DNA from: a virus
Taxonomy: Duplodnaviria; Heunggongvirae; Uroviricota; Caudoviricetes
Reading direction: 5' to 3' (one strand)
IMG/VR virus record: IMGVR_UViG_2778261280_000009
Coordinates: 1 to 34,933 of that record
Length of the DNA stretch: 34,933 bases
Shown: piece after piece, positions 163 through 34,933 of the stretch
Numbering within the stretch: position 1 is the first letter of the stretch
Layout of the letters: each line of letters opens with the position of its first letter
Notes under the pieces: generated by a model
The model's input: the letters and a program-made list of their open reading frames with translations, nothing else
What the model was told of the DNA's origin: nothing
The model's database searches: none
Translations under genes and position numbers: made by a program

Positions 163-2720
163 CGTCCACCTCCGGAGAACAGGCCACCATCACGCATCTG
201 TGTCTGAATTTCATCACGGGCACCCTTGCGGGCCATGTCATACACTGCCTTCATCATCTGTGGACCTGGCAGACCATTCGTACCGTCGTTCTGAATCACC
301 ACGTGATTGTTCTGATTAAAATTAATGCCTTCAGCCCGCCGCATCTGCGCCGGACTTCCGGCACCGCCCACATAACCACCTTCCGCATAGCCCCGCATCA
401 GGCGGTACAGGTTGCCGACACCAATCCGGCTGGTTGCCTCCTTCGTGAAGACAAATTCACCACGGTGAACAATCCCCGCTGGCTCATATTTGCCGCCGGT
501 TCCTGTGAATCCTCCGGTTGCAAAATGGAATTTCGCCGCAGCGGCCTGAATGGCTGTACCGCCTGACGCGGATGCGCCGCCACCAACAGCCCCGCCAATG
601 GCGCTGCCGATACTCCCGACAATCCCCACCATTGCCTGCTTAAGCAGAATTTCTGTCATCATGGACAGCACGGAACGGGTGAAGCTGCGCCAGTTCTGTT
701 CACTGCCGGTCAGCATCGCCGCCATATTCTGTGCAATACCATCAAAGGTCTGCGTGGCAGCACTTTTAACCTGCGACATACTGTCCGTGGCGCTCTCTTT
801 CCACTCGCTCCAGCCGGACTTGAGGCCTGCCATCCAGCTCCCGCGAAGCAGGTCTTCAGCCGCCCAGGTCTTTTTCTGCTCTGACATGACGTTATTCAGC
901 GCCAGAGGATTATCGCCATACTGTTCCTTCAGGCGCTGTTCCATGGCTTCCCGTTCTGCCTGCCGGTCAGTCAGCCCCCGGCTTTTCGCATCAATAGCGG
1001 CCCGTTTTGCCCGTTGCTGCTGTGCGAATTTATCCGCCTGCTGCGCCAGCGCGTTCAGGCGCTCCTGATACGTGACCTTATCGCCAAGTGCAGCCAGCTG
1101 GCGTTTGTACTCCAGCGTCTCATCTTTATGCGCCAGCAGGGATTTCTCCTGTGCGGACAGCTGGCGACGTTGTGCCGCCTCCTCCAGTACCGCGAACTGA
1201 CTCTCCGCCTTCCACAAATCCCGGCGCTGCTGGCTGATTTTCTCATTTGCTCCGGCATGCTTCTCCAGCGTCCGGAGTTCAGCCTGAAGCGTCAGCAGGG
1301 CAGCATGAGCACTGTCTTCCTGACGATCGCCCGCAGACACCTTCACGCCGGACTGTTTCGGCTTTTTCAGCGTCGCTTCATAATCCTTTTTCGCCGCCGC
1401 CATCAGCGTGTTGTAATCTGCCTGCAGGATTTTCCCGTCTTTCAGTGCCTTGTTCAGTTCTTCCTGACGGGCGGTATATTTCTCCAGCGGCGTCTGCAGG
1501 CGTTCGTAAGCCTTCTGCGCCTCTTCGGTATATTTCAGCCGTGACGCTTCGGTATCGCTCTGCTGCTGCGCATTTTTGTCCTGTTGAGTCTGCTGCTCAG
1601 CCTTCTTTCGGGCGGCTTCAAGCGCAAGACGGGCCTTTTCACGATCATCCCAGTAACGCGCCCGCGCTTCATCGTTAACAAAATAATCATCCTTGCGCAG
1701 ATTCCAGATGTCGTCTGCTTTCTTAAACGCAGCCTCTGCCTTAATCAGCATCTCCTGCGCGGTATCAGGACGACCAATATCCAGCACCGCATCCCACATG
1801 GATTTGAATGCCCGCGCTGTCCTGTCTGCCCAGGTCTCCAGCGTGCCCATGTTCTCTTTCAGGCGGCGGGTCTGGTCATCAAACCCTTTCGTTGCGGCCT
1901 CGTTCGCCGCCTGCAATGCCCCGGCTTCATCGCCGGAACGCTGCAACTGAGCAACATACGCAATCTGCTCCGCCGTCACGTTATGGAACTGGCGTGCCAT
2001 CGCCGTCAGCCCCGACGTCGGGTCTGTGGTCAGCTTCCCGAAGGCTTCAGCGACCTTGTCCACCTCCACGCCGGATGCAGAGGAGAAACGCGCCACACTC
2101 TGGCTGATGGACGCAATCTGAGCCTCACCGCTTACCCCCGCCTTAACCAGTGCGCTGAGTGACTCGCTGGTCTGGTTAAACGTCAGCCCTGCCGCCTGCC
2201 CGGCTCTGGACAGGACCAGCATACGATCTGCCGTCAGTCCCGCCTGATTGCCGGAAAGGACCAGCGTTTTGTTGAAATCGGACAGGGTTGAGTTGCCCTG
2301 ATACCAGGCATACGCCAGCGCACCGGTCGCCACCGCCAGCGAGGTGGCCCCCACCATCGGCAGGGTGATCGCACCGGCAAGCCCCCTGAACATGGGGATC
2401 ATCCCGCCGAAGGAGTCCTTCACCTGCCCCCCCTGTTGCAGCAGGATCAGCCACGGACTTTGCCCGCCTGCAAGCTGCGTGGCCACGTCGGTGAACTGTG
2501 CAGGCAGCATACGCATGGCGGCTTTATACTGCCCGACGGAAATCCCCGCTTTCTGTGCAGCCAGCGCCTGTCGGCTCAGCGACTGTTCAACGACTGCCGC
2601 TGTTTTTTTCGCATCACTTTCCGTACCGGAAAAATGACGCCTGACTCTGGCCATCTGCTCGTCAAATCTGGCCGCATCCAGACTCAAATCAACGACCAGA
2701 TCGCCTACCGGTTCAGCCAT
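159..2720 (-). CDS. H: Tail tape measure protein gpH
   Basis: 853-aa ORF, same length as lambda gpH and near-identical to the lambda H sequence as I recall it; Gly-rich C-terminal segment; sits downstream of G/T. Confidence 0.9.
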   Translation of the reverse strand: MAEPVGDLVVDLSLDAARFDEQMARVRRHFSGTESDAKKTAAVVEQSLSRQALAAQKAGISVGQYKAAMRMLPAQFTDVATQLAGGQSPWLILLQQGGQVKDSFGGMIPMFRGLAGAITLPMVGATSLAVATGALAYAWYQGNSTLSDFNKTLVLSGNQAGLTADRMLVLSRAGQAAGLTFNQTSESLSALVKAGVSGEAQIASISQSVARFSSASGVEVDKVAEAFGKLTTDPTSGLTAMARQFHNVTAEQIAYVAQLQRSGDEAGALQAANEAATKGFDDQTRRLKENMGTLETWADRTARAFKSMWDAVLDIGRPDTAQEMLIKAEAAFKKADDIWNLRKDDYFVNDEARARYWDDREKARLALEAARKKAEQQTQQDKNAQQQSDTEASRLKYTEEAQKAYERLQTPLEKYTARQEELNKALKDGKILQADYNTLMAAAKKDYEATLKKPKQSGVKVSAGDRQEDSAHAALLTLQAELRTLEKHAGANEKISQQRRDLWKAESQFAVLEEAAQRRQLSAQEKSLLAHKDETLEYKRQLAALGDKVTYQERLNALAQQADKFAQQQRAKRAAIDAKSRGLTDRQAEREAMEQRLKEQYGDNPLALNNVMSEQKKTWAAEDLLRGSWMAGLKSGWSEWKESATDSMSQVKSAATQTFDGIAQNMAAMLTGSEQNWRSFTRSVLSMMTEILLKQAMVGIVGSIGSAIGGAVGGGASASGGTAIQAAAAKFHFATGGFTGTGGKYEPAGIVHRGEFVFTKEATSRIGVGNLYRLMRGYAEGGYVGGAGSPAQMRRAEGINFNQNNHVVIQNDGTNGLPGPQMMKAVYDMARKGARDEIQTQMRDGGLFSGGGR

Positions 2721-3153
2721 ACCGGACTCCTCCTGCGATCCCTTCTGATACTGTCATCAGCATTACGTCATCCTCCGTCATGTCCGCCACATCCGGGGAA
2801 GTAGGGATAACTTCATTCCCGTCCGGGCCAAAGCGGACACCTCCGGCAAGCCCTGCCGCTTTCTGCATCAGCACATCATCTTCAGGCTCTTCGTCAGCCT
2901 CACGCCGGTTCAGCAGACTGAAATCCAGCGGATGCATATCCGGATCGCTGAAAAACAGGCTGAGCACGGTGTACGTCAGCCCGGAAAAGTGCATATCCAG
3001 CAGAACATCATGAAAATAATGGGTACTGTAAAAGCGGTGCCAGTCGGCATACTCCGTGGATGACATCCCGGCAAGCATGGCACGCCAGTCGGGTCGCCCC
3101 ATCTCACGCGCCAGTTTCAGGGCAAAACTCAGCTCACCGTCGAACACTTTCCC
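2713..3153 (-). CDS. T: gpT segment, made only as a G-T fusion through a programmed -1 frameshift
   Basis: The -1 frame after the slippery site reads GKVFDGELSFALKLAREMGRPDW..., matching lambda gpGT; there is no independent start codon (the leading M in the track is an artefact). Confidence 0.8.
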   Translation of the reverse strand, partial: GKVFDGELSFALKLAREMGRPDWRAMLAGMSSTEYADWHRFYSTHYFHDVLLDMHFSGLTYTVLSLFFSDPDMHPLDFSLLNRREADEEPEDDVLMQKAAGLAGGVRFGPDGNEVIPTSPDVADMTEDDVMLMTVSEGIAGGVRYG

Positions 3154-3551
3154 GCAGAAACAGGCTCTGCGGGCCCGGCGTCCTCTGTCTGTTCAGGGGC
3201 ATTATTCACAACAAACTCATACATACCAGACAGCCGGTACACCACGTTTTCAGCATGAGAAATTGCCTCTGTAGGCCAGGTGGTAAGCACTTCCTGCTCA
3301 ATCTGTTTAACGGCTTCATTCATGGACGGCATCTGCGTCTTCTGCGGATGGTTATGCCACAGGGACATCGCCACCAGAAACGCGCCGGTTCTGATGGCGT
3401 CTTCCACAGTAAACTTCCGGTTGCTGTCTGACTCCGCCTGTTCTGCCTGCCGTTTCATCAGGGCGAGATGCTCAATACGCTGCAGGGCTGACAGTTCAGA
3501 AAGCGTGACGGTCACGCCGTTATGTTCAAATGATTCGGTTTTCAGGAACAT
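3129..3551 (-). CDS. G: Tail assembly chaperone gpG
   Basis: 140-aa ORF immediately upstream of H; C-terminus ...PVSAGKCSTVS contains the G GGA AAG slippery heptamer. Confidence 0.85.
   Translation of the reverse strand: MFLKTESFEHNGVTVTLSELSALQRIEHLALMKRQAEQAESDSNRKFTVEDAIRTGAFLVAMSLWHNHPQKTQMPSMNEAVKQIEQEVLTTWPTEAISHAENVVYRLSGMYEFVVNNAPEQTEDAGPAEPVSAGKCSTVS
3147..3153 (-). other. Programmed -1 ribosomal frameshift slippery heptamer GGGAAAG (G to G-T)
   Basis: Minus-strand GCG GGA AAG lies 6 codons before the G stop; the -1 frame continues into the T ORF. Confidence 0.8.
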
Positions 3552-3566
3552 CGCTGACTCTCCGGA

Positions 3567-4307
3567 TTAACTGTCGGTGACAGTGATTTCTGCAACCGCA
3601 GCAAGTTCACCATTACCGGATACAACCGGAATGTTGACCTTACCTGCAGCAACGCCTTTCACGGTGATGGTCATACCACTGACCGACACGGTGGCTTTTG
3701 TTTTATCCGCTGACACCGCACGGAAGCTCTTGTCAGTTGCGCCCTCCGGCTGGAATGCCACGGTCAGCGTGGTGCTCTGCCCTTTCACCACCGAGGAGCT
3801 GGCAGGCGTCACAGTCATACCGGTTGCCGCCGTCACCGTACTGCGATCTTCTGCCATTGACGGACGGCCCACATTGGTGACCTTCACCGTACGGGTGATC
3901 ACTTCCTTCGCCGTCACCGCCTTACCGATACTGCTGACCCAGCCACGGAACACATCGACCGTGCCGTTCGGGAAGCGGATTTTATAGGCACGGGTATCAC
4001 CTTCATTAAACCACGCCAGCAGCGCCTGCTGCCCCTGCTCTCCGGGCATCCACGCCAGCGTGAAGCTGGTATCTCCGGCGGATTTCTGCCCCTGCCCGGT
4101 CGCGGTCCAGTCCGCATCTTCATCATCGAGATAACTGTCGTCATAGGACTCAGCGGTCAGTTCGCCGGGCGTCAGGTCTTTAACTTTAGCCAGACGCGAC
4201 CAGTCAACGTCTGAAAGCGGGTTCGCATAAGGGTCGCCGCTCCCGTTATAAACCCACAGGGTGGTCCCGGCACCTTTCACCGGTATTGCTGGATTTGGTA
4301 CAGGCAT
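3567..4307 (-). CDS. V: Major tail tube protein gpV
   Basis: Start trimmed to [16 protein letters not shown] (246 aa), near-identical to lambda gpV as recalled, including the C-terminal Ig-like region; the track ORF is extended upstream. Confidence 0.9.
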
Positions 4308-4314
4308 ATCGTCC

Positions 4315-4710
4315 TCACATTTCATAGGTAATGACATAAGTCAGATCGGCAGAACTCCACAGGCCCGCATCATCGTCGCGCCGGTAGTCATAGCCACTGG
4401 CCACCATACTGGTGAGCAAATCTGACAGTGCCGGGATATCGCTCATCACCGGATAAATCCGGGACTCCATCCACGAATCCAGCTCTGAATCCGGTACCTG
4501 AGCAGGCAGGAAAACTTCGATATGCAGCTCCGCCTGCCAGGTATCGCTGTCCAGCTCTTCGCCCGTGTATTCAGCGCCGGTGAGATAAACGGCAACTGCC
4601 GGAAAATCCGCCTCATCAAAAACAGCGGGGCGACCATCAAAAAACGTCGCCCCGGTGTCATGCTTCTCCAGTGCATCCAGTACGGCTGCACGGAGTTCAG
4701 TATGTTTCAT
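4315..4710 (-). CDS. U: Tail terminator protein gpU
   Basis: 131 aa, [18 protein letters not shown]..., matching lambda gpU in length, sequence and position. Confidence 0.85.
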
Positions 4711-5285
4711 CGCTTTATTACCATCCTCAGTTGATGCTGCAGCGCATAGCCCAGCTCTTTCGGAAGACGTTCACGCCGGATCCGCTCAATATTTTGTTTA
4801 AACGCCGTGGTCAGCGGCACCGCCATCGGGATTTTCACCACATCAATGGGGTAACGGTTTTTCCCGGCCACACGCTGCATGACATGCCACCGGCCATTTT
4901 TCAGTTGCTGAATAAACACGCCGGGAATACGACGGTTTCCCACCACAAGCACGCTGCCGCCACCTTTCAGGGCTGAACGCTGCCCCTTTTTACGACGCCT
5001 GCGTCGGGACAGGACAATCCGCGCGTTACCCAGCTTGATTACGGGCAAATCCCCCCGGTTAACCTTGATTCTGGCCTGCGGATTTTTGACCGTGGCCCTT
5101 TTCAGCCTGGCCCTTTCCTTTACCAGTTTCCGGCGTACCTTTGTCTCACGGGCAACCTGTGACGCCGACTGCGATATCGCGGATGAAGCAACGCGGTTAA
5201 TGGCCATTGCGGCGGCACCGGGCACCGCCGTTCTGCTGATACGGCTGAGGTTTTCAACGGCCTGCTCAAGACCCTGTATGGCCAT
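4707..5285 (-). CDS. Z: Tail completion protein gpZ
   Basis: Start trimmed to MAIQGLEQAVENLSR (192 aa), matching lambda gpZ; Arg-rich central segment. Confidence 0.85.
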   Translation of the reverse strand: MAIQGLEQAVENLSRISRTAVPGAAAMAINRVASSAISQSASQVARETKVRRKLVKERARLKRATVKNPQARIKVNRGDLPVIKLGNARIVLSRRRRRKKGQRSALKGGGSVLVVGNRRIPGVFIQQLKNGRWHVMQRVAGKNRYPIDVVKIPMAVPLTTAFKQNIERIRRERLPKELGYALQHQLRMVIKR

Positions 5286-5296
5286 ACATCCCCCTT

Positions 5297-5650
5297 TCAG
5301 CGACGACGGCTGGCGGCAGGTGGTTGCCCCCGGTTGAGCCAGAGATAACAACTCCCTCCGTCATCCGGAGAAACACGGTCCACCCAGAACATCTCGCCGT
5401 TAATGGTCAGCGTGTCACCACGCCGTACAGCACAAACCGTATCCGTAAGCACAAATAATGACGGGTTACTTCCTTCAATACGGATCCCACTACTGGCAAA
5501 ACCCAGCGACTCCGGATCGTCAAAAACGCCATGAACCTCGCCGCCACGCTGTGCACCGGAGGTGAACTGCGCACTGATGCCCATCACTTCAACAATCGTA
5601 CTGTCCACCCCGGCAAGGGCGGCATCAAAGGCATTCTGAAAATCACGCAT
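5297..5650 (-). CDS. FII: Head-tail joining protein gpFII
   Basis: Start trimmed to MRDFQNAFDAALAG (117 aa, the lambda FII size); C-terminus ...WVDRVSPDDGGSC.LWL resembles lambda FII. Confidence 0.75.
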   Translation of the reverse strand: MRDFQNAFDAALAGVDSTIVEVMGISAQFTSGAQRGGEVHGVFDDPESLGFASSGIRIEGSNPSLFVLTDTVCAVRRGDTLTINGEMFWVDRVSPDDGGSCYLWLNRGQPPAASRRR

Positions 5651-6017
5651 AAACAGCCATTCCACCATCAACGTGTGTTTTTGCATCTGAGGACATAATC
5701 AGAATCACCCGACCAACATCCGCAAGCTCAACGGATTCCCCCGTTTCACCATCAACGCCACAGAGATGGAGGCAGGTCAGAACTCTGATGCGCGTTAACG
5801 CGCCGGATGTTTCCTCACGAACATCATGAGCCGCGGTTTCCCGCTCCCGGATATCCATATTCATAACCTGTACATCATCGCCGGATGACTGCATTTCCTC
5901 TTCCCATTCTGCCACCCGCTGCGCTATCTCTGCGGCACTCCCGGATATATCCGGCTCACGCCCCAGAATCAGGGCCAGTTCATCAAGCCGTTTCAGATTT
6001 TGCTCTTTCGTTGCCAT
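5643..6017 (-). CDS. FI: DNA-packaging / head completion protein gpFI-like
   Basis: Sits between E and FII; start chosen at MATKEQNLKRL, preceded by an AGGGGG Shine-Dalgarno; acidic mid-region; diverged from lambda FI. Confidence 0.55.
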   Translation of the reverse strand: MATKEQNLKRLDELALILGREPDISGSAAEIAQRVAEWEEEMQSSGDDVQVMNMDIRERETAAHDVREETSGALTRIRVLTCLHLCGVDGETGESVELADVGRVILIMSSDAKTHVDGGMAVYA

Positions 6018-6068: not shown

Positions 6069-7097
6069 TTATTTCACCTGTACCACCACAAACTCATCCG
6101 GGTCCGGCAACACCATCAGCGGCGCGGACTGCGTCATGGTAAATTCACGGGCGGGATCCCCTACCGTCAGCCAGTGTTTCGGATAACGGGAAGAGGCCAC
6201 CACACCTTCGGACAACGCCTGAGCATCCTGAATGGCACCGTAACAACGGATCCCATCTGCAGCAGTATTCCCCAGAACCAGCATGCCATCTGGAAGATAA
6301 CGTTTTTCGATACCGTCTTCTGCTATATAAGACGTTTTCGCCACCACAATGGCCAGATCGCCGTAATACCCCTTGAAGGACACCACTGCGCCCAGATCTT
6401 TCACTGCCGTTTCGAGTTGAGAATTTGAACCGCGACGGGTATCCAGTTTTTCGCGGAACAGCTTAAAACCATTCAGAAGACGCCAGACGGTACCGTCCAT
6501 AATGGCAATATTCACAAGACCGCTGGCCTGGTCGCAGTAGAGGTCAATATCATGTGTAGGATCGAACGTGTCACGATCCTGTTTTGACCACTCCTTACCA
6601 CCACCCTGAGTGATGTTATTCTTCGTCGACCTGCCAAAATCGACCTCAATTTTCTCGAACTGGTCTCCTTCCATGGTGTATTTGCCATACAACACAGCAT
6701 TTACCGCCTGCATTTCTTCCACCTGGACAATCGCGTGCTCTTCCTGTTTGAGGTTATCGGTAATGATACGCAGACGGCGGTAAGCCGGATCATTCAGTTG
6801 AGATGGATCTTCACCAGGAAGGCGCTCAACCGCCTGCTGGTAATTAAATTCGTGTTTCGGCTTGACGTAGCCCGGACGCAACACGCGGGTTTCACCACCA
6901 CGATGACGCAGCACTTTTCCTTCAACAACCGGGGAGACATAGGCCGCCACCGGCGTTTTTCCGGTAATTTTGTCCAGCATCACCTCTTCGGTATGGAAAT
7001 TCACCGTACGGCGGAAAAACAGCTCCAGAAACAGCGCACGAAATTTAACTTTTTGTTCGGTATAACCGAGTAACTGGCGGGTCGTAAACAATCCCAT
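6069..7097 (-). CDS. E: Major capsid protein gpE-like
   Basis: 342 aa (lambda gpE is 341); shares conserved blocks with lambda E (e.g. PGYVKPKH, QVEEMQAV, DTRRGSNS, TGDPAREFTM) but is clearly diverged. Confidence 0.85.
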   Translation of the reverse strand: MGLFTTRQLLGYTEQKVKFRALFLELFFRRTVNFHTEEVMLDKITGKTPVAAYVSPVVEGKVLRHRGGETRVLRPGYVKPKHEFNYQQAVERLPGEDPSQLNDPAYRRLRIITDNLKQEEHAIVQVEEMQAVNAVLYGKYTMEGDQFEKIEVDFGRSTKNNITQGGGKEWSKQDRDTFDPTHDIDLYCDQASGLVNIAIMDGTVWRLLNGFKLFREKLDTRRGSNSQLETAVKDLGAVVSFKGYYGDLAIVVAKTSYIAEDGIEKRYLPDGMLVLGNTAADGIRCYGAIQDAQALSEGVVASSRYPKHWLTVGDPAREFTMTQSAPLMVLPDPDEFVVVQVK

Positions 7098-15418: not shown

Positions 15419-16471
15419 TTATTTCCCCACCAGCTCGTTTATCTCTTTCACTGTCTGGTTAAACCGCTCTGACTCAAGCTCAACACCTAAGGCCCGACGC
15501 CCCAGCGCCGTTGCTGCTTTTATTGTGGAACCGGATCCCATAAAGAAATCAGCAACCAGATCGCCGGGTCGACTACTGGCATTGATTATTTGCCTGAGCA
15601 TATCCGCCGGTTTCTCACACGGATGTTTACCCGGGTAGAACTGAACGGGTTTATGCATCCAGACATCGGTATAAGGCACGGAGACTGATACGGAGAAATA
15701 GCGCCGGAGAGATTTAAACTCATCCAGCAATTCAGAATATTTGCGATTCAGTGAATCATAAGATGCCACCAACTGGTGGTGTGGTTGTTCCAGTTGTTGT
15801 TCCTGAAACTTCTCTGCCGCTATACGGGAAAACAGTGCCTGTAACTTCCGGTAGTCAGCCTCATTCGGCAACTGCCACTGACTGGCACCAAACCAGTGGG
15901 AAACCATATTTTTCTTACCTGTGGCTTCGGCAATTTGTTTTGCCGTTATACCCAGTTCGGCACGAGCATCCCTGAAATACGATATCAGCGGTGCCATTAT
16001 GTGCTGTTTGAGTTCCCTTTCTTTTGCCACATAGCCGTCACTTTTGCCGCGATATGGCCCCCGGTAATGTTCAGCAAACAGAACGCGCTCTGTGGCAGGA
16101 AAATATGCGCGCAGACTTTCTTTATTACACCCATTCCAACGTCCGGACGGCTTCGCCCAGATGATATGGTTAAGCACGTTGAAACGTTCACGCATCATGA
16201 TCTCAATATCAGATGCCAGGCGATGCCCACAGAACAGGTAAAGGCTTCCGGCAGGTTTCAACACCCGCCAGAACTGGGCCAGACAGTGGTCCAGCCACTT
16301 AAGGTAATCTTCGTCCCCTTTCCACTGATTGTCCCAACCGTTAGGTTTCACCTTGAAGTAAGGCGGATCGGTAACAATCAGGTCAATGGAATCATCAGGC
16401 AGGGACTGAATAAAATGCAGGCAATCAGCGTTGATTAAATCAACACTGTTTATTTTTACAGTATTTTTCAT
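15419..16471 (-). CDS. DNA methyltransferase (beta-class N6-adenine/N4-cytosine amino-MTase), orphan
   Basis: 350 aa; N-terminal DPPY catalytic motif (LIVTDPPYF) and C-terminal AdoMet motif (DFFMGSGST); no adjacent restriction endonuclease gene. Confidence 0.8.
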   Translation of the reverse strand: MKNTVKINSVDLINADCLHFIQSLPDDSIDLIVTDPPYFKVKPNGWDNQWKGDEDYLKWLDHCLAQFWRVLKPAGSLYLFCGHRLASDIEIMMRERFNVLNHIIWAKPSGRWNGCNKESLRAYFPATERVLFAEHYRGPYRGKSDGYVAKERELKQHIMAPLISYFRDARAELGITAKQIAEATGKKNMVSHWFGASQWQLPNEADYRKLQALFSRIAAEKFQEQQLEQPHHQLVASYDSLNRKYSELLDEFKSLRRYFSVSVSVPYTDVWMHKPVQFYPGKHPCEKPADMLRQIINASSRPGDLVADFFMGSGSTIKAATALGRRALGVELESERFNQTVKEINELVGK

Positions 16472-16996: not shown

Positions 16997-17527
16997 TTAT
17001 TTAATACATTCTTTTGCTTGCGCATAATAAATTTTATGAGTATTAGCAAGCTTAACGAAGTTATACTTAACTGCCCCTAACAGGGTTCCAACTCTTGTAT
17101 GCCCTTCCATTAAATGAAGCCCTGTTGTATTACTTTTCAGCAAAGCTCGATCTATAAAAAATGGAGGTTCACACCATGTGCCAAAATTACACCAATGCGC
17201 TTTTATTTCATCATCCATAAATACATCGCCTTTACGGGTTGTGAAATCTTCAACGACCTCATGCAAAAAATCAGGGTAAGTAGCATTATCCCCGATAGTT
17301 AAAAAATTTTTAGTGGGAAGTTCAATCAATTTCCATTCGATTTGGTCAATATTAAGATCCCCATAAAGCTCCTGAAATCTGTCATAACCTGCCAATCCAT
17401 AATAAATCTCCTGAATTACAGGAGTGGGGGCGGCGATAGAATATTGCTCACGAAGTATTCTTTCAGCCTCAGGAGCTTTAAATATGGGTCTTTCTGAGAA
17501 AATAGGCAAAAGATCTCGGTATAACAT
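16997..17527 (-). CDS. Hypothetical protein (176 aa) in an AT-rich moron between Q and the lysis genes
   Basis: Uninterrupted ORF with a GGGGA Shine-Dalgarno; local GC is visibly lower than the flanking phage DNA; flanked by terminators; no family recognised. Confidence 0.6.
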   Translation of the reverse strand: MLYRDLLPIFSERPIFKAPEAERILREQYSIAAPTPVIQEIYYGLAGYDRFQELYGDLNIDQIEWKLIELPTKNFLTIGDNATYPDFLHEVVEDFTTRKGDVFMDDEIKAHWCNFGTWCEPPFFIDRALLKSNTTGLHLMEGHTRVGTLLGAVKYNFVKLANTHKIYYAQAKECIK

Positions 17528-28529: not shown

Positions 28530-29305
28530 CCACATTTACCGATAAAGAACTGATTAAAGAAATCAAAGAGCGTATCAGCAGCCTGGAGGTTCGAGACGAT
28601 ATTGAGCGCCGTGCTTATGAAATTGCTCTGGCATCGCTGGAAGAGGAGCCGGTGGCATGGCTACATTCAGACAATGGCTTAGGTATTCCAGCAATAACCA
28701 GGAGTAAAAACATTGCTGACAGTTGGTTATCAAAGGGCTGGTATGTTCAGCCGCTATATATAGCCAAGCCAGTGCCGGTGGTGCCAGATGCTCGTCCGTC
28801 TTTAAATAATGGCATAGTCGGTTTTGATGAAGGCTGGAACGCCTGCCGCGCCGCCATGCTTCATGGTGCCGAACCTGTAAACCAAACTTACAAGTCACCA
28901 CACACGCAGTTTGAACAAGTTGCTGACCTCTACGAAATGCAATTTGATGACGGTCGCACTTGTGCCTTTCACACTGATGCGCAAAAGGCTGCGCAATGGC
29001 TTCAGGTGTGCGACGGAAACAGGGTTCAGGAATACGTTAAGCTGGAACGGCTGCAGAACGTGCTGTCTGGCAACTCTCCGGTAAGTCCGGGTGGTTGGAT
29101 AAGCTGTAGTGAGCGAATGCCGAATGATAAACAGTATGTTTGGTGTTGGGGGAAGTCTTACGGCTGGACTGAGTGCGATACCTTCGAAGGGTATTACGAT
29201 TGGTCGAGAAACAAATGGTGGGCAGTTACTGACGATGGGGAAGAACCGGCATCGAAAGTAACCCACTGGATGCCGCTACCGGAGCCACCGCAGGAGGTGA
29301 AGTAA
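28526..29305 (+). CDS. DUF551-like domain protein (259 aa)
   Basis: C-terminal Trp/Cys-rich segment WISCSERMPNDKQYVWCWGK...THWMPLPEPP is typical of the phage DUF551 domain. Confidence 0.5.
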   Translation: MTTFTDKELIKEIKERISSLEVRDDIERRAYEIALASLEEEPVAWLHSDNGLGIPAITRSKNIADSWLSKGWYVQPLYIAKPVPVVPDARPSLNNGIVGFDEGWNACRAAMLHGAEPVNQTYKSPHTQFEQVADLYEMQFDDGRTCAFHTDAQKAAQWLQVCDGNRVQEYVKLERLQNVLSGNSPVSPGGWISCSERMPNDKQYVWCWGKSYGWTECDTFEGYYDWSRNKWWAVTDDGEEPASKVTHWMPLPEPPQEVK

Positions 29306-29499
29306 TGAACAACTTAATGACAACTAAACAAGTCGCCGACTTCTGTGGCGTTTCAGTATCGACCGTTCTTCGCTGGAACAGCGTAAACAGGAGAACTGGC
29401 CAGAAGTACAGGCCTGACTTTCCAGATCCTGATATTAAATCCTGCCCAAATAAATGGGCATCACGCAAGATATACAGGTTTGCTGGAGTTATTGAGTGA
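29305..29499 (+). CDS. Excisionase-like / AlpA-family HTH DNA-binding protein
   Basis: 64 aa; TTKQVADFCGVSVSTVLRW is an Xis/AlpA-type HTH; located at the integration-module end of the prophage. Confidence 0.55.
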   Translation: MNNLMTTKQVADFCGVSVSTVLRWNSVNRRTGQKYRPDFPDPDIKSCPNKWASRKIYRFAGVIE

Positions 29500-29533
29500 T
29501 GGGTATTAGCTCATATCAGAACTAATACCCATC
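29498..29533. repeat. Perfect 12-bp inverted repeat with 12-nt loop, overlapping the excisionase-like gene stop
   Basis: GATGGGTATTAG...CTAATACCCATC; no U tract follows. Confidence 0.6.
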
Positions 29534-29701
29534 AATGACACAGAGCCAACTACCCACCCTGTGTCAGGGGCTAACTTTTAACACCATAATTCACCGCTAG
29601 ATAAAAACTGTATTGCATTGCACGAGCGGCGCAGCATTATCAGTTAGAGTGTCTTTACCTTGTTAGGCTCCACAGTTCGCACTGTCCAACGCCTGTCACT
29701 T

Positions 29702-32700
29702 TCACACGCTGCGCCTTCGAGAATATTCATTTAATCGCTGATAACGAACATCTTGCTCCAGTTGTGGAGCAGCTTGAACAATTTGAAGCAAGCATTGCCC
29801 CAACTCTCGAGGCCCCCAGTGTTGGTCGGCAATCACGGCATTCAGCAGGGATAGAGCGTCCGCAGGATATCGGCTGCAAATATCTGATTTTAGCAAAAGG
29901 CGAACGTCGTAGCTAAGGTGTTCGAGCGGTTGCAGCCAGTCCTGCACCACTGCCAAAGCCGCCGGAAATTCACCTCGGGCAGCAATCACCATACGAGTCA
30001 ACGATTCGGATATGCGTGGGGTGGCCAAGTTGCGGGACTTTGGCCAAACCTGTTGCCAAAATGGCTGGACACGATTTTTCCAATACTCCTCGCGCTGATC
30101 GCCCGCACCTTCAAGTGCCTGGTATAACGCCTGCGCGGCTACCTCCAGACCTTCTTGTGGAAGAGCACTAATTGCCGTTCGGAACTCCTCCACGGTATAT
30201 CCCTCGGTAGGGCCCAGAGCTGCATAAGTCAGGAAAGTAGCGAATTGCTGCCGGTGCTCGCCAAGATCAGAATAGTGATTGGCGCTCTCCAAAAAATCTG
30301 ACTTGAAAGCTATCAGCAACGGTTCATACAGGCGTGGCGACCAGAGGAAGCCTTCCCACACAGCTTTTGCTTCGACGGGATTACTCCAAGCAAACAAGGG
30401 CAATAGATACTGTTCGGTCCAAGGTCGATCTACGCGAAAAAATGCGATCAGCCGCGACCCCAGCAACACCCGACCATGGCGGAATAGCTCTATCTGTACA
30501 TTACACAATTTGGTGAAAAGTGTTTTCAATTCAACAGGAAGCAAATCATTGTCATTCGGGTTCTGTTTGAACCATAGGGTGATCAGTGATTGCGTGACAT
30601 GCCCAATGGGATGATTGATCGCCGTAGAAACAGGATCATAGGTCTCAATTCCGTTTCGAATGGTGCTAGACTCTGGGCTTGTTTCTATCATCAGAACCCG
30701 ACGACAAAGGGCCAGTAGAATCTCCTCGTGGCAGAGGATGGACTTCGAAGCCTCCTCCATCCACCAAGTGACAGCGTGGGAAATCTCCTGAAGTACTGCG
30801 TCAGGCATGTCAAGCACCAACGGTGCGGCGTACCGCCACGAACGCAAAATCATCCCTGGTTCAGCCCAAGTCTGCAGAGCTTCACGCCACCGACCAACAG
30901 GCCACACATCATCTTGTGATAGTTTACGTAACGCATACAGACTGTGAAAAAAGCGCGTACGGCAAACATCACTCCAAGTGTCCTCATAGAAAGGCAGTCT
31001 TTCTGGCATAGGCTTTGCGAGCCATTGCACTAATTCCTGCCACTTACGGGGCGCAATGTCGACATCTATACTCTCCTCGAAGCCTGGATCACCGGTTCCG
31101 CTCATCCAGTGAGAGAATTCATCACGCTCGTTGGTTGCCAGTTGCCATTTTGGGTATGCTGTGGATATTTCCGTCAAACGTGTAGCCGCAGACTCTCCCA
31201 AAACAAGGCCCGCTCCCCTGAGCTTCGCTAGACACAACCAGACAGAATGAGCCACCAAATAATGCCACCTGTCTGCTTCCAAATTATCCTCGTACATCTC
31301 GCGCGGAGGCCCTGCCAAGATAGCAGTTTCCAGACGCTCTTGTGCAATTCCTGTCAGATGTCGTCCCTGCAAAACAAATAGTCTGAATACCTCTCGCCCA
31401 GTATCCGTGGCCCACAACCACCATGAACCGTCCTCTAACAACCAATTAACCCACCGCTCAGGTGGTATGCAGTTGTCTTGGCTTGCGGCAAACAGTGCCA
31501 GACGTTTGAAGGTGGGATATGGCAACTCAAACCAATTCTGAGCAATGCGCGTGGCCTGATCGCTGTCTTTGGCTCGAACGGCTAACCATGAATCCCGAAG
31601 TAATTCAATCAGGCTCACCCAATCGCGGAACCCCCGGTTCTGCCAGTGCGGAGTGATGGACGGCAAATCCCAATGCGAGCGGTCGTGACGATCGTCGGAC
31701 TCTCCCAACTCCCGCAACAAGTCCAGTGCATCACGCAACAACTGCTGAAAATCTTCCAACAGGTATGGCAAGGACGATTTCCATGACTCGTCAGCAAGGT
31801 CGAACAGGGTTGAACGTACGTAATCAGCAGTCAGCACCAGCTCCCAATCCACCAATTGCTTGATTCGCAAGGGCTCATCAGTGCTGCTCGAATCGTCTTC
31901 ACTATAGCGAAACGGCCGCCTCAACATAACCTTGGGAGAAAGCAACTCGCGTAACTCCAAGCGCAATGTAGTCGTCAAGCCTTCATTCTTTAAGCGGTTT
32001 TGCCAACGATACAAATCCAGGTTCTGCAATGGCGATTTCACACGACCACTAAGCAGAAGCCGCCATAAAGTAGACATAGGTGGACCAGGAATAGCCAGGG
32101 GGGAATGCAAGAGAATTTCATCTAACTCAGAAGTCTTACGCTCCCGCATCAGTGCTGCTAAGCGATCTAGTTCGCTCTCAATCAGAAACATCCAACGGTC
32201 GTGTATTTGTCCGCCGCGTTCAGCAATCCATATGATCAACCTAGGGTCGCCCAGATAACGAACTAGCCAACGGGCTATATGGGACATTACGTCATCCCAT
32301 TTGCTAGCACTGACACATCCAGAAACCAGCGACATCTGCGGGGCTAGCTCATAGGACGCAGGACGCTGAACCAGGCTGAATCGGAGTTTCGGGTCAATTT
32401 CGACATGCGGAGATACACAAAAGCGTGGCAGATCGCTGTATTTAAATCGTTCGTCCGAGAAAGCTTTCAATAACCAATCCAGCGGCGGTGCAGGATTGAG
32501 TTCCGCAAAACATTTTGCTGGTAAACCTGACTTATCAGATAAGGCCCACATCATCCGACCAACGAAATCGTCCTGCCGAGTACTATCCTGCGGGCGGGCC
32601 AGAGCATGTTTGACGACAATGGCTTCTTTGCCTTGTATACCATCGCGATAAATATTTGCCCAAGCGCACAATGTATGGTGCATCGCTGAATGATCATTGG

Positions 32701-33529
32701 AGTCCGCCGGTACGGTGTAAAGGATGGGGGTGACCCCCTTGGCCTCCCACTCGATAGATTTCCGGTGCTCCTGCCCCGGCTCACATTCTCCTAGTGCCCA
32801 TACTTGCGGCGTGACTTCACCGAGCCTCCGATCTGCTGCCAGTGCGTCCATCATATAGCGTAGCACCGGGTCGTTGATGCTGTAGCCCACGAAGCAGACT
32901 ACGTAGTTACGGAACAAGTCACTTACAAAACGGGCTGCCCAGCGTTCCGTGAGATAGGCTAAGCCAAAGTCTCCACTAGTGACAACCAGACGATTCAGAG
33001 CAGTATCGTCTGTCTTTTCCGGTAACAACCCATGCAGGTAGACTATTCCGTCCCAGCGACTATTTTTCGGAATTGGCAGCATCGGCGCTACATAAGCCTG
33101 AAACGCTTGGGCCGTGCGTTTAGCTGCCACATGAAATAAGCGGTCAAAGTTGGTAGTAACTAACCGAAGGGCACCATCGCGACTACGCGCCAAACGCAAC
33201 AGCGCCATCTGAGTATCAGTTGCGCCTCTATAGTGAAGTTTTGGCTTAAGGGCTTGTTCCAGCGCGCGACGGACGGCTATACGCTGTCCCGGTAGGCGCC
33301 GTTCCAACAAATCCAATGTGGCGTCGAACTGACCGCGCTTGAAGGCCTCACACTCAATTTCTGAAAGTGTTGTTCCGTTCAACTGGTAAATCCGCTTTAC
33401 CAATCCCTTGAAACCTGGCAAACCAGCAGGGTAGGAAATGCCTGCCCCGCAGAAGAACACCACGCGGCCTTCCTCGTGCGCCTGCAAAAGTTCATCCGGA
33501 ATATCAGGGCCGTTGGTGATAAATTGCAT
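29702..33529 (-). CDS. Large SIR2-like domain protein (1275 aa), candidate defence-associated sirtuin-type NADase
   Basis: AGGAGG Shine-Dalgarno 8 nt upstream of the ATG; N-terminal VVFFCGAGISYPAGLP, TTNFD (N127) and YLHG (H166) fit the SIR2-like fold; about 1000 aa of Trp/Leu-rich helical sequence with no Walker A motif. Confidence 0.7.
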   Translation of the reverse strand: MQFITNGPDIPDELLQAHEEGRVVFFCGAGISYPAGLPGFKGLVKRIYQLNGTTLSEIECEAFKRGQFDATLDLLERRLPGQRIAVRRALEQALKPKLHYRGATDTQMALLRLARSRDGALRLVTTNFDRLFHVAAKRTAQAFQAYVAPMLPIPKNSRWDGIVYLHGLLPEKTDDTALNRLVVTSGDFGLAYLTERWAARFVSDLFRNYVVCFVGYSINDPVLRYMMDALAADRRLGEVTPQVWALGECEPGQEHRKSIEWEAKGVTPILYTVPADSNDHSAMHHTLCAWANIYRDGIQGKEAIVVKHALARPQDSTRQDDFVGRMMWALSDKSGLPAKCFAELNPAPPLDWLLKAFSDERFKYSDLPRFCVSPHVEIDPKLRFSLVQRPASYELAPQMSLVSGCVSASKWDDVMSHIARWLVRYLGDPRLIIWIAERGGQIHDRWMFLIESELDRLAALMRERKTSELDEILLHSPLAIPGPPMSTLWRLLLSGRVKSPLQNLDLYRWQNRLKNEGLTTTLRLELRELLSPKVMLRRPFRYSEDDSSSTDEPLRIKQLVDWELVLTADYVRSTLFDLADESWKSSLPYLLEDFQQLLRDALDLLRELGESDDRHDRSHWDLPSITPHWQNRGFRDWVSLIELLRDSWLAVRAKDSDQATRIAQNWFELPYPTFKRLALFAASQDNCIPPERWVNWLLEDGSWWLWATDTGREVFRLFVLQGRHLTGIAQERLETAILAGPPREMYEDNLEADRWHYLVAHSVWLCLAKLRGAGLVLGESAATRLTEISTAYPKWQLATNERDEFSHWMSGTGDPGFEESIDVDIAPRKWQELVQWLAKPMPERLPFYEDTWSDVCRTRFFHSLYALRKLSQDDVWPVGRWREALQTWAEPGMILRSWRYAAPLVLDMPDAVLQEISHAVTWWMEEASKSILCHEEILLALCRRVLMIETSPESSTIRNGIETYDPVSTAINHPIGHVTQSLITLWFKQNPNDNDLLPVELKTLFTKLCNVQIELFRHGRVLLGSRLIAFFRVDRPWTEQYLLPLFAWSNPVEAKAVWEGFLWSPRLYEPLLIAFKSDFLESANHYSDLGEHRQQFATFLTYAALGPTEGYTVEEFRTAISALPQEGLEVAAQALYQALEGAGDQREEYWKNRVQPFWQQVWPKSRNLATPRISESLTRMVIAARGEFPAALAVVQDWLQPLEHLSYDVRLLLKSDICSRYPADALSLLNAVIADQHWGPRELGQCLLQIVQAAPQLEQDVRYQRLNEYSRRRSV

Positions 33530-33715
33530 TCCTTTTCCTCCTATCCAATGTGGATATTCATTCGAGCAAATTAGGGGACAATGGGGCTACAGATTATTAG
33601 ACCGACTATGCAAACACTGCTTCCTTGCAAGCTACCCTGATCTAGCCAAATCACAATGTCCGCTCTCCTATCAAAGCAAACGGCTAGATTTGATTGTATT
33701 ATGGCTACTCAAGGA

Positions 33716-34933
33716 TCAGTTAGAGTCTGAGCAAGTAATTATCGATTCAATCCTCTCCCACCATGCCAAGTAAGCTTTACGCTGTTCTTCTAGATAATCG
33801 CTCTTATCATAAACTTGCCATACCCCTGGCAGCTTATGACCAAGCATGATTTCTGCGATATGAGGCGCAGTAAGATCAGAAAAATTTGTTCGTGCTGTCC
33901 GTCTCAAGTCATGAAGAGACCAATGAGGGAATTGATACCCAAAACGCCGCCATGCGTATTGCATTAAATTGTAAGGTAGCGACTGCAAGGATGTCCGACC
34001 AACTGGTTCCCTGCTTCCTTCCTTAGTAAAAAGCATATCGGAACCATTGTTCATAGAGATAGTGTACTTTATAAGCTCTTCAACCTGTTCAATAATGGGC
34101 CGCTTTAGCGGTTCGCCTGTTATCTCCCCAGTCTTATGTCGTTCTGGTGGTACAGTCCATACCTTATTAATGAAATCAAAATCGTCTACCCTAGCGGTAA
34201 TTAGCTCTGAACTACGGCAGCCAAAATGCAGCAATAGTTTAATGAAGGCCCGGTATTTAGGAACCATTCGAGAACCATCGATCGCAGCATAAAGGATTTT
34301 AATTTCATCATGTGTCAGAAACCGTTTCTTCTGACCTTTACGGATATCCATATCTTTACCCGTGATATCCGACAGCGGGCGAGTTTCAATGAGCTTTCTC
34401 TTATACGCCCATACATGGGCCTGCTTTGCGTTAATTAGCAATCGGTCTGCTATTGCTGGAGTCTTAGTGCAAAGAGGTTCCAGGACTTCTAACCAATCAT
34501 GCAATGTAGCTGCATCGTGAGGGATATTCCCGATTTTAGAGAACAGGTGCAGCTCAAACGAGCGGAGTATCTGTTCAGAACCTTTTTTATTTTTTACACA
34601 ATATGCTTCATACCAGGCACGGATCACAGACTCTACCGTCATGGCTTCAGTAGCTTTTCGTTTTTCAGCCTGCTTGACCAATCGTGGATTGCGGTTTGAC
34701 TCGAGTTCACCACGGAGACGGATAACTTCTTCTCTGGCCTCTTTTAATCCAGTTGCCGGGTAAGTTCCGATATCAAGACGCTCACCTTTCCCCGCCCACT
34801 GATAACGATATTGGAACACTACGCGACCTTTCGGTGATACTCTGACAGACAGACCATCACGATCGGATTTAACCAAAACCTTATCACGTTCCTTTCCAAC
34901 GACTGAACGCAACCACGCATCAGACAGCGCCAT
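33716..34933 (-). CDS. int: Tyrosine site-specific integrase (P4 / CP4-57 type)
   Basis: 405 aa; N-terminal arm-binding-like domain (MALSDAWLRS...), catalytic HDLRRT box and C-terminal Tyr (WQVYDK); ATG is the last three bases of the window. Confidence 0.85.
   Translation of the reverse strand: MALSDAWLRSVVGKERDKVLVKSDRDGLSVRVSPKGRVVFQYRYQWAGKGERLDIGTYPATGLKEAREEVIRLRGELESNRNPRLVKQAEKRKATEAMTVESVIRAWYEAYCVKNKKGSEQILRSFELHLFSKIGNIPHDAATLHDWLEVLEPLCTKTPAIADRLLINAKQAHVWAYKRKLIETRPLSDITGKDMDIRKGQKKRFLTHDEIKILYAAIDGSRMVPKYRAFIKLLLHFGCRSSELITARVDDFDFINKVWTVPPERHKTGEITGEPLKRPIIEQVEELIKYTISMNNGSDMLFTKEGSREPVGRTSLQSLPYNLMQYAWRRFGYQFPHWSLHDLRRTARTNFSDLTAPHIAEIMLGHKLPGVWQVYDKSDYLEEQRKAYLAWWERIESIITCSDSN

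What the first reader, a model, noticed from the sequence alone, without database searches (positions are those of the whole stretch)
29702..33529. Giant SIR2-domain protein between excisionase and integrase: candidate single-gene NAD+-depleting defence system
The N-terminal ~270 aa carry SIR2-like hallmarks: GAGIS at residues 28-32 (DNA 33434..33448), TTNFD with N127 (33149..33151) and YLHG with H166 (33032..33034). The following ~1000 aa are helical and Trp-rich with no P-loop, so this is not a STAND/Avs-type protein. The architecture matches standalone defence-associated sirtuins, which deplete NAD+ when a phage protein is sensed. The gene has its own Shine-Dalgarno and sits in the cargo slot next to the integrase; the C-terminal sensor region could not be assigned and may be a divergent variant. 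A lambda-like prophage carrying such a gene would also need to avoid triggering it with its own structural proteins during induction.
Basis: partly seen in the sequence, partly recalled or inferred. Interest (0 to 1): 0.85.

Follow-up and report, generated by a model that had tools for sequence, protein, structure and literature searches.

The report
Known Dsr1 anti-phage sirtuin on a prophage

Summary
The interpretation (a single-gene, NAD+-depleting, SIR2-based defence protein) is also right. It is not a candidate, though: it is Dsr1. The protein matches NCBIfam's Dsr1 equivalog end to end (2051 bits, cutoff 1400) and PADLOC's Dsr1 model (2715 bits). The exact sequence is deposited at NCBI as [quoted passage not shown]. 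76 of 5426 complete E. coli genomes carry an annotated dsr1, and in the related prophages examined it lies beside the integrase at yjjG. The C-terminal "sensor" is not divergent; it is 75-98% identical to named Dsr1 proteins across Proteobacteria. Published work shows phage defence and NAD+ depletion by DSR1, a T4 counter-gene (nrdC.5) and NAD+-rebuilding phage pathways. A 2026 preprint identifies the capsid protein of a T1-like phage as the trigger of E. coli Dsr1. Minor extras: this allele is a chimera of two E. coli dsr1 lineages, and the prophage's own capsid protein is unrelated in sequence to T1's capsid protein. Verdict: already known, low interest.

The parts
29702..33529 (-). dsr1 coding sequence (1275 codons plus stop)
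   Evidence: ORF. NCBIfam NF041818 Dsr1 equivalog 2051 bits against cutoff 1400, covering residues 1-1271. PADLOC Dsr1 PDLC02183 2715 bits, 1-1275 of 1275. The exact protein is in NCBI as Dsr1.
32723..33529 (-). N-terminal SIR2 (NADase effector) domain, residues 1-269
   Evidence: Pfam SIR2_2 covers residues 123-269, E=1.5e-22. Residues 12-245 align with the solved SIR2 NADase KomC.
33434..33448 (-). GAGIS NAD-binding glycine-rich motif, residues 28-32
   Evidence: It aligns with GAGVS of KomC and is nearly invariant in 31 Dsr1 homologues.
33149..33151 (-). Asn127 codon (TTNFD), predicted catalytic residue
   Evidence: TTNFD aligns with TTNYD of KomC and is nearly invariant in the family.
33032..33034 (-). 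His166 codon (YLHG), predicted catalytic residue
   Evidence: It aligns with His146 of KomC, the residue changed in the deposited KomC(H146N) entry 9xvc (counted from the printed alignment).
29705..32722 (-). C-terminal all-helical sensor region, residues 270-1275
   Evidence: 2590 homologues. The top 120 are 75-98% identical, and every full-length one has an N-terminal SIR2_2 domain. 2804 clusters at 50% identity match it. The AF2 model is all-alpha. Only generic alpha-solenoid fold matches were found.
33537..33542 (-). Shine-Dalgarno AGGAGG, 7 nt before the ATG
   Evidence: Read directly from the sequence.
33716..34933 (-). Tyrosine integrase of the prophage, directly upstream of dsr1 on the same strand (186-nt gap)
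   Evidence: Pfam Phage_integrase, Arm-DNA-bind_3 and Phage_int_M. The same int-dsr1 pair lies next to yjjG in E. coli S3 and Z247.
29305..29499 (+). Excisionase, convergent with dsr1 (202-nt gap)
   Evidence: PHROG 1553 'excisionase', E=7.7e-36, full length.
32450..33860 (.). Recombinant patch: dsr1 codons 1 to ~360, the int-dsr1 intergenic region and the 3' end of int. It is 12-19% diverged from the common E. coli allele, while the rest of dsr1 differs by less than 0.5%. The boundaries are approximate (200-nt bins).

Best explanation
The gene is dsr1, encoding defence-associated sirtuin 1, a known single-protein anti-phage system. Here it is carried as cargo by a lambda-type prophage of E. 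coli, next to the integrase. Shown here: a full-length, intact Dsr1 with an N-terminal SIR2 domain that keeps the GAGIS, Asn127 and His166 catalytic signature, followed by a ~1000-residue all-helical repeat region and no NTPase module. Taken from the literature on close homologues: the helical region acts as a sensor, and in E. coli Dsr1 co-expression of the major capsid protein of a T1-like phage triggers cell death that depends on the NADase domain. DSR1 lowers cellular NAD+ during infection and blocks phage replication. Phages answer with nrdC.5 (T4) or with NAD+-rebuilding pathways. Inferred for this locus: in the lysogen, the prophage-borne Dsr1 protects the host, and so the prophage, against superinfecting lytic phages. 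It is expressed either from its own promoter in the 186-nt gap after int or by read-through from int.
For: Family assignment: NCBIfam Dsr1 equivalog 2051 bits (cutoff 1400), full length. PADLOC Dsr1 2715 bits, 1-1275 of 1275. Pfam SIR2_2 E=1.5e-22. The exact sequence is deposited as Dsr1 on 64 contigs, in a 418-member 90% cluster. It is annotated dsr1 in 76 of 5426 complete E. coli genomes, the closest at 99.7% DNA identity. Catalytic motifs are present and align with a solved SIR2 NADase. The sensor is conserved: 98% identical to the common E. coli allele and 75-82% identical across genera. The diverged N-terminal patch has 84 synonymous against 26 non-synonymous codon differences, so it is under purifying selection. 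It is a single-gene system: homologues in V. cholerae (Tn7-like CRISPR-associated transposon), Rahnella (integrase island) and Thauera (conjugative element) share no neighbouring gene. Function in homologues: defence and NAD+ depletion by DSR1. ECOR17 dsr1 with 300 bp of native upstream DNA protects MG1655, and T4 nrdC.5 counteracts it. A capsid-protein trigger and dependence on the NADase domain were reported for EcDsr1. NARP1 and NARP3 overcome DSR1.
Against: Nothing here contradicts the assignment. The limits are as follows. No experiment has been done on this exact allele, whose SIR2 half differs by about 8% in amino acids from the common E. coli allele. I could not obtain the sequence of the tested EcDsr1 (WP_029488749.1), so its identity to this protein is inferred, not measured. 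The capsid-trigger result comes from a preprint and from one phage gene library. ECOR17 Dsr1 also restricts a T4 mutant, so the sensor's range may be wider than T1-like capsids. In B. subtilis, DSR1 gave only transient NAD+ depletion without culture collapse, so the outcome (abortive or not) is unsettled. The promoter scan found nothing above chance in the region.
Confidence: 0.95

Rival explanations
1. It is a DSR2-type sirtuin that senses phage tail tube protein rather than capsid protein.
For: It has the same overall plan: an N-terminal SIR2 domain, a long helical C-terminus and a single gene. The DSR2 literature is listed.
Against: No Dsr2 model appears among the PADLOC hits at E<=1, whereas the Dsr1 models match at full length. 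No DSR2 chain from the PDB matches by sequence at E<=0.01, although DSR2 structures have been published. The NCBIfam equivalog assignment is Dsr1.
Confidence: 0.02
2. It is a SIR2-STAND (Avs5-like) or Thoeris ThsA-like protein, which needs an NTPase switch or a signalling partner.
For: There are weak PADLOC hits of the N-terminal ~220 residues to ThsA (E=4e-6) and LmuA (E=4e-4).
Against: Those hits cover only the SIR2 part of the models. There is no Walker A motif or GK[ST] anywhere and no NTPase or SLOG domain in Pfam. The neighbours are an integrase and an excisionase, not thsB. Homologues have no conserved partner gene.
Confidence: 0.01
3. It is a housekeeping NAD-dependent protein deacylase (CobB-type sirtuin) or an inactive relic.
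For: It has the SIR2 superfamily fold. There is a trace hit to a deacylase model (E=0.2, 11 bits).
Against: The deacylase hit scores 11 bits against a cutoff of 221 and covers 24 residues. The gene is intact, keeps all family-invariant residues and shows purifying selection. It sits on mobile elements, not in core-genome positions.
Confidence: 0.02

Closest known systems
E. coli Dsr1 (EcDsr1, WP_029488749.1; DSR1 as named by Gao et al. 2020, cited)
   Same: Same family by curated full-length models and same species. It has the same length as the PADLOC single model (1275 positions) and the same architecture: SIR2 plus a helical sensor with no NTPase. It falls in the same 90% identity cluster as the common E. 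coli protein.
   Different: This allele is a chimera. Residues 1 to ~360 are 92% identical to the common 1275-aa lineage and 97% identical to a 1276-aa lineage. Residues 361-1275 are 99+% identical to the common lineage. Identity to the tested accession itself could not be measured.
ECOR17 Dsr1 (Srikant et al. 2022, eLife, PMC9391042)
   Same: A chromosomal E. coli dsr1 that is active from 300 bp of native upstream DNA. It restricts T4 lacking nrdC.5.
   Different: The sequence and genomic context of the ECOR17 copy were not compared here.
Bacillus subtilis DSR2
   Same: A single large protein with an N-terminal SIR2 NADase and a C-terminal helical sensor, giving NAD+-depletion defence (abstracts).
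   Different: There is no detectable sequence match outside the SIR2 superfamily. DSR2 senses tail tube protein and is blocked by DSAD1. For Dsr1 the reported trigger is the major capsid protein.
Avs7 (STAND NTPase with a TPR sensor; preprint 10.64898/2026.01.04.697583)
   Same: According to the preprint, the sensor domain is homologous, bilobed and built of TPR repeats, and in both proteins it responds to the capsid protein of a T1-like phage.
   Different: Dsr1 lacks the STAND NTPase module and carries a SIR2 effector. I could not verify the sensor homology independently, because the best 150 representatives were all Dsr1-type.
KomC, a solved SIR2-domain NADase (PDB 8zsf, 9xvc)
   Same: It is the closest solved structure by sequence for residues 12-245. 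The GAGxS, TTN(F/Y)D and HG motifs align.
   Different: KomC is a 264-aa protein from a different, multi-component system. The match is weak (E=5.6e-4) and it has no sensor region.

Membership tests
Dsr1 (defence-associated sirtuin 1) | Full-length match to the curated family model, above its cutoff | tested here: met
   NCBIfam NF041818 (equivalog) 2051.4 bits against cutoff 1400, residues 1-1271 on profile 1-1263. PADLOC Dsr1 PDLC02183 2715.5 bits, and PDLC04167 E=2e-192.
Dsr1 (defence-associated sirtuin 1) | N-terminal SIR2 domain with an intact NAD-binding and catalytic signature (GAGxS, Asn, His) | tested here: met
   Pfam SIR2_2 E=1.5e-22. GAGIS 28-32, N127 and H166 are present. They align with KomC motifs, including H146.
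Dsr1 (defence-associated sirtuin 1) | About 1000-residue helical C-terminal sensor homologous to that of other Dsr1 proteins | tested here: met
   Residues 272-1275 are 75-98% identical to 120 listed homologues. Every full-length one has an N-terminal SIR2_2 domain, and many are named Dsr1. The AF2 model is all-helical, though at modest confidence (pLDDT 62).
Dsr1 (defence-associated sirtuin 1) | No NTPase module; single-gene system without a conserved partner | tested here: met
   No Walker A motif and no other Pfam domain. Neighbourhoods in E. coli, V. cholerae, Rahnella and Thauera share no gene.
Dsr1 (defence-associated sirtuin 1) | Confers phage resistance with NAD+ depletion that depends on the SIR2 active site | not testable with these tools
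   Shown for homologues only.
Dsr1 (defence-associated sirtuin 1) | Sensor is activated by a phage major capsid protein and is homologous to the Avs7 sensor | not tested
   This rests on the preprint only. No Avs7 sequence was available, and the top 150 representatives were all Dsr1-type.
DSR2 | Sequence match to DSR2 models or solved DSR2 chains | tested here: not met
   No Dsr2 model among the PADLOC hits at E<=1. No DSR2 chain among the PDB hits at E<=0.01.
Avs5 / SIR2-STAND | STAND NTPase domain with a Walker A P-loop between effector and sensor | tested here: not met
   No [GA]xxxxGK[ST] and no GK[ST]. No NTPase Pfam domain. No Avs model among the PADLOC hits.
Thoeris ThsA | SIR2 fused to a SLOG/STALD signal-binding domain, with an adjacent thsB (TIR) gene | tested here: not met
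   The ThsA hit is weak (E=4e-6) and covers only profile positions 12-208 of 478. The neighbours are an integrase and an excisionase.
CobB-type NAD-dependent protein deacylase | Match to the deacylase equivalog above its cutoff | tested here: not met
   11.1 bits against a cutoff of 221, over residues 19-42 only.

The most novel reading that the evidence does not exclude
The prophage and its own Dsr1 may not be neutral to each other. In one version, the Dsr1 sensor also recognises the resident lambda-type (gpE-family) capsid protein, so the prophage must carry an undescribed Dsr1 inhibitor or timing mechanism to complete induction. In another, the swapped SIR2-plus-promoter patch seen in this allele reflects selection to escape phage inhibitors of the effector half. 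Neither idea is excluded by the data, and neither is supported beyond the mosaic pattern and the unknown breadth of the sensor.
Probability: 0.07. Interest if true: 0.45.

Novelty: already known. Interest (0 to 1): 0.1.

Why it matters
It matters little as a discovery. The gene is a named, curated and experimentally studied defence system, and automatic annotation pipelines already label it. It is useful as a positive control for the scan: a reader working from raw sequence alone correctly recognised a SIR2 defence protein, its catalytic residues and its lack of an NTPase. The locus is also a clean natural example of Dsr1 as cargo beside the integrase of a lambda-type prophage. That makes it a convenient system for asking whether a prophage-borne capsid sensor tolerates its own carrier's capsid.

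Tried and rejected
(1) The original DSR1 paper (Gao et al. 2020) could not be read by PubMed id or PMC id, so it is cited only through papers that cite it. (2) No supplements are held for the Avs7/Dsr1 preprint, so the sequence of WP_029488749.1 could not be compared. (3) The structure prediction of residues 272-1275 used 32 sequences, all at least 75% identical, and gave only pLDDT 62 and pTM 0.40. Residues 272 to ~640 were poorly modelled. The Foldseek search of the PDB returned only generic alpha-solenoids (karyopherins, TTC7B, CAND1) at TM 0.05-0.25, which supports 'helical repeat' and nothing more specific. (4) The exhaustive search with the sensor region listed only Dsr1-type proteins in its best 150, so the reported link to Avs7 sensors could not be checked. 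(5) The promoter and terminator scan of 29300-33800 found counts equal to the shuffled expectation, so no dsr1 promoter can be named. (6) I considered diversifying selection on the SIR2 half and rejected it. The diverged patch is mostly synonymous (84 against 26 codons), has sharp borders, extends into the intergenic region and int, and matches a second E. coli lineage at 97%. It is therefore a recombination patch. (7) I considered Avs5, ThsA, DSR2 and CobB membership and rejected each (see the membership table).
Full report
OBSERVATION. The ORF exists as described: 29702..33529 on the minus strand, ATG start, 1275 codons. GAGIS is at residues 28-32 (33434..33448), TTNFD at 125-129 with Asn127 at 33149..33151, and YLHG at 164-167 with His166 at 33032..33034. 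The same script found no Walker A motif and no GK[ST] anywhere. Residues 281-1275 are 4.4% Trp, against 1.4% in the first 280 residues. An AGGAGG lies 7 nt before the ATG. The flanking genes are a tyrosine integrase (33716..34933, minus strand; three integrase Pfam domains) and a 64-aa excisionase (29305..29499, plus strand; PHROG 1553, E=7.7e-36). The window as a whole is a lambda-type prophage. The ORF pattern and the annotated E. coli relatives show tape measure, G/T, V, U, FI, an E-type major capsid protein, D, C, portal and terminase genes. They also show lysis genes, Q, a replication region and an S24 repressor.

WHAT IT IS. The protein is Dsr1. Pfam finds SIR2_2 over residues 123-269 (E=1.5e-22). 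NCBIfam's equivalog model 'anti-phage defense-associated sirtuin Dsr1' matches residues 1-1271 at 2051 bits against a cutoff of 1400. PADLOC's Dsr1 model of exactly 1275 positions matches end to end at 2715 bits. A PHROG of 1275 positions does the same. The exact amino-acid sequence is already in NCBI under that name from E. coli, on 64 contigs, within a 418-member 90% cluster. The DNA matches an annotated dsr1 in 76 of 5426 complete E. coli genomes. The closest is strain S3 at 99.7%, and most are 95-99% identical. It also matches an unannotated stretch of an Stx2c-converting phage record. In S3 and Z247 the gene has the same setting as here, directly downstream of the prophage integrase, with the prophage next to yjjG.

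THE C-TERMINAL REGION. It is not divergent. Residues 272-1275 alone retrieve 2590 proteins. The best 120 are 75-98% identical over the whole length, and every full-length one carries an N-terminal SIR2_2 domain. Many are named Dsr1 and come from Rahnella, Pectobacterium, Enterobacter, Vibrio cholerae, Thauera, Ferrovum and others. An exhaustive HMMER search of 1.84 billion representatives found 2804 clusters at 50% identity. The full-length hits among the best 150 all have the Dsr1 layout, with the sensor starting near residue 273 of a ~1250-aa protein. An AlphaFold2 model is all-helical but only moderately confident (pLDDT 62, pTM 0.40; the last ~630 residues are mostly 70-90). A Foldseek search of the PDB gave only generic alpha-solenoids at very low TM-scores. 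No Dsr1 structure is in the PDB copy by sequence. The best match is the small SIR2 NADase KomC, whose GAGVS, TTNYD and His146 align with GAGIS, TTNFD and His166 here.

HOW IT WORKS. The steps shown here are the intact SIR2 active-site signature, the helical sensor, the absence of an NTPase and the absence of any conserved partner gene. Homologues sit in a Tn7-like CRISPR-associated transposon in V. cholerae, an integrase island in Rahnella and a conjugative element in Thauera, with nothing shared around them. The other steps come from papers on homologues. DSR1 defends against phage and NAD+ falls during infection, although in B. subtilis the fall was transient and the culture did not collapse. 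An E. coli ECOR17 dsr1 with 300 bp of native upstream DNA protects MG1655 against a T4 mutant, and the T4 early gene nrdC.5 restores infection. The phage NAD+-rebuilding pathways NARP1 and NARP3 overcome DSR1. A 2026 preprint reports that the Dsr1 sensor is homologous to the TPR sensor of the STAND protein Avs7. It also reports that the major capsid protein of the T1-like phage ZL19 was the unique trigger of EcDsr1 toxicity in a 73-gene screen, and that disrupting the NADase domain abolishes toxicity and defence. For this locus I infer that Dsr1 is a lysogenic-conversion cargo gene that protects the lysogen against superinfecting lytic phages.

SELF-TRIGGERING. The resident capsid protein (6069..7097, minus strand) is Pfam Phage_cap_E and is 62% identical to lambda gpE. 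The T1 capsid protein is Pfam Major_capside. T1 stands in here for ZL19, the T1-like phage whose capsid protein was the reported trigger. The two proteins show no detectable sequence similarity (best BLASTP E=2.0). This is compatible with simple specificity, but it is not proof. Both proteins are expected to share the HK97 fold (background knowledge). ECOR17 Dsr1 also restricts a T4 mutant, so the sensor's range is not fully known.

RIVALS. DSR2, Avs5-type SIR2-STAND, Thoeris ThsA and CobB-type deacylases were each tested against their defining features and failed. An inactive relic is unlikely. The gene is intact, keeps the family-invariant residues and shows mostly synonymous change where it has diverged.

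SIDE OBSERVATION ON THE ALLELE. Against the common E. coli allele (Z247), differences are confined to a patch at about 32450-33860. The patch covers dsr1 codons 1 to ~360, the int-dsr1 intergenic region and the 3' end of int. It shows 17-39 differences per 200 nt, while the remaining ~2700 nt of dsr1 show 0-3 per 200 nt. The N-terminal 360 residues are 97% identical to a second E. coli/Shigella lineage of 1276 aa and 92% identical to the common lineage. The C-terminal 915 residues show the reverse pattern, 96% against 99+%. Within residues 1-300 there are 84 synonymous and 26 non-synonymous codon differences. This is a recombination patch between two dsr1 lineages, which is ordinary lambdoid mosaicism.

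VERDICT. The feature is already known, named, curated and partly characterised, so interest is low.

Noticed in passing
window 32450-33860: The dsr1 allele is a chimera. Codons 1 to ~360, the int-dsr1 intergenic region and the 3' end of int are 12-19% diverged from the common E. coli allele, while the rest of the gene differs by less than 0.5%. The N-terminal part matches a second, 1276-aa E. coli/Shigella lineage at 97%. The changes are mostly synonymous.
   Followed up: yes
window 15419-16471 (-): A 350-aa N6/N4 DNA methyltransferase (Pfam PF01555 E=3e-42; PADLOC MTase_II E=1e-151) lies in the moron slot between the antiterminator Q gene and the holin gene. No restriction partner was identified.
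   Followed up: partly
window 16997-17527 (-): A 176-aa ORF lies in the lowest-GC stretch of the window (about 0.41). It has no Pfam or PADLOC match and hits only a PHROG of unknown function (phrog_8867, E=1e-96). It may be a second cargo gene.
   Followed up: partly
LC727881.1 positions 2049-5876 (Stx2c-converting phage record, hit H16): A 96.2% identical full-length dsr1 lies in this phage record with no annotated feature under it.
   Followed up: no
L004 6001-9825 (Vibrio cholerae contig BOEE01000007.1): A Dsr1 homologue whose sensor region is 77% identical lies between Tn7-like transposition genes (TnsA-like, rve transposase, TniB) and type I-F Cas genes (Csy3, Csy4). It is therefore probably cargo of a CRISPR-associated transposon.
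   Followed up: no
window 29305-29499 (+) and 33716-34933 (-): The excisionase and integrase genes are on opposite strands and separated by dsr1, unlike the adjacent, co-oriented int-xis pair of lambda itself. The excisionase gene ends a plus-strand operon that converges on dsr1.
   Followed up: no
dsr1 homologues P0016-P0037 compared with the window protein: Across genera, the SIR2 half (about 88% identity) is more conserved than the sensor half (77-81%).
   Followed up: no
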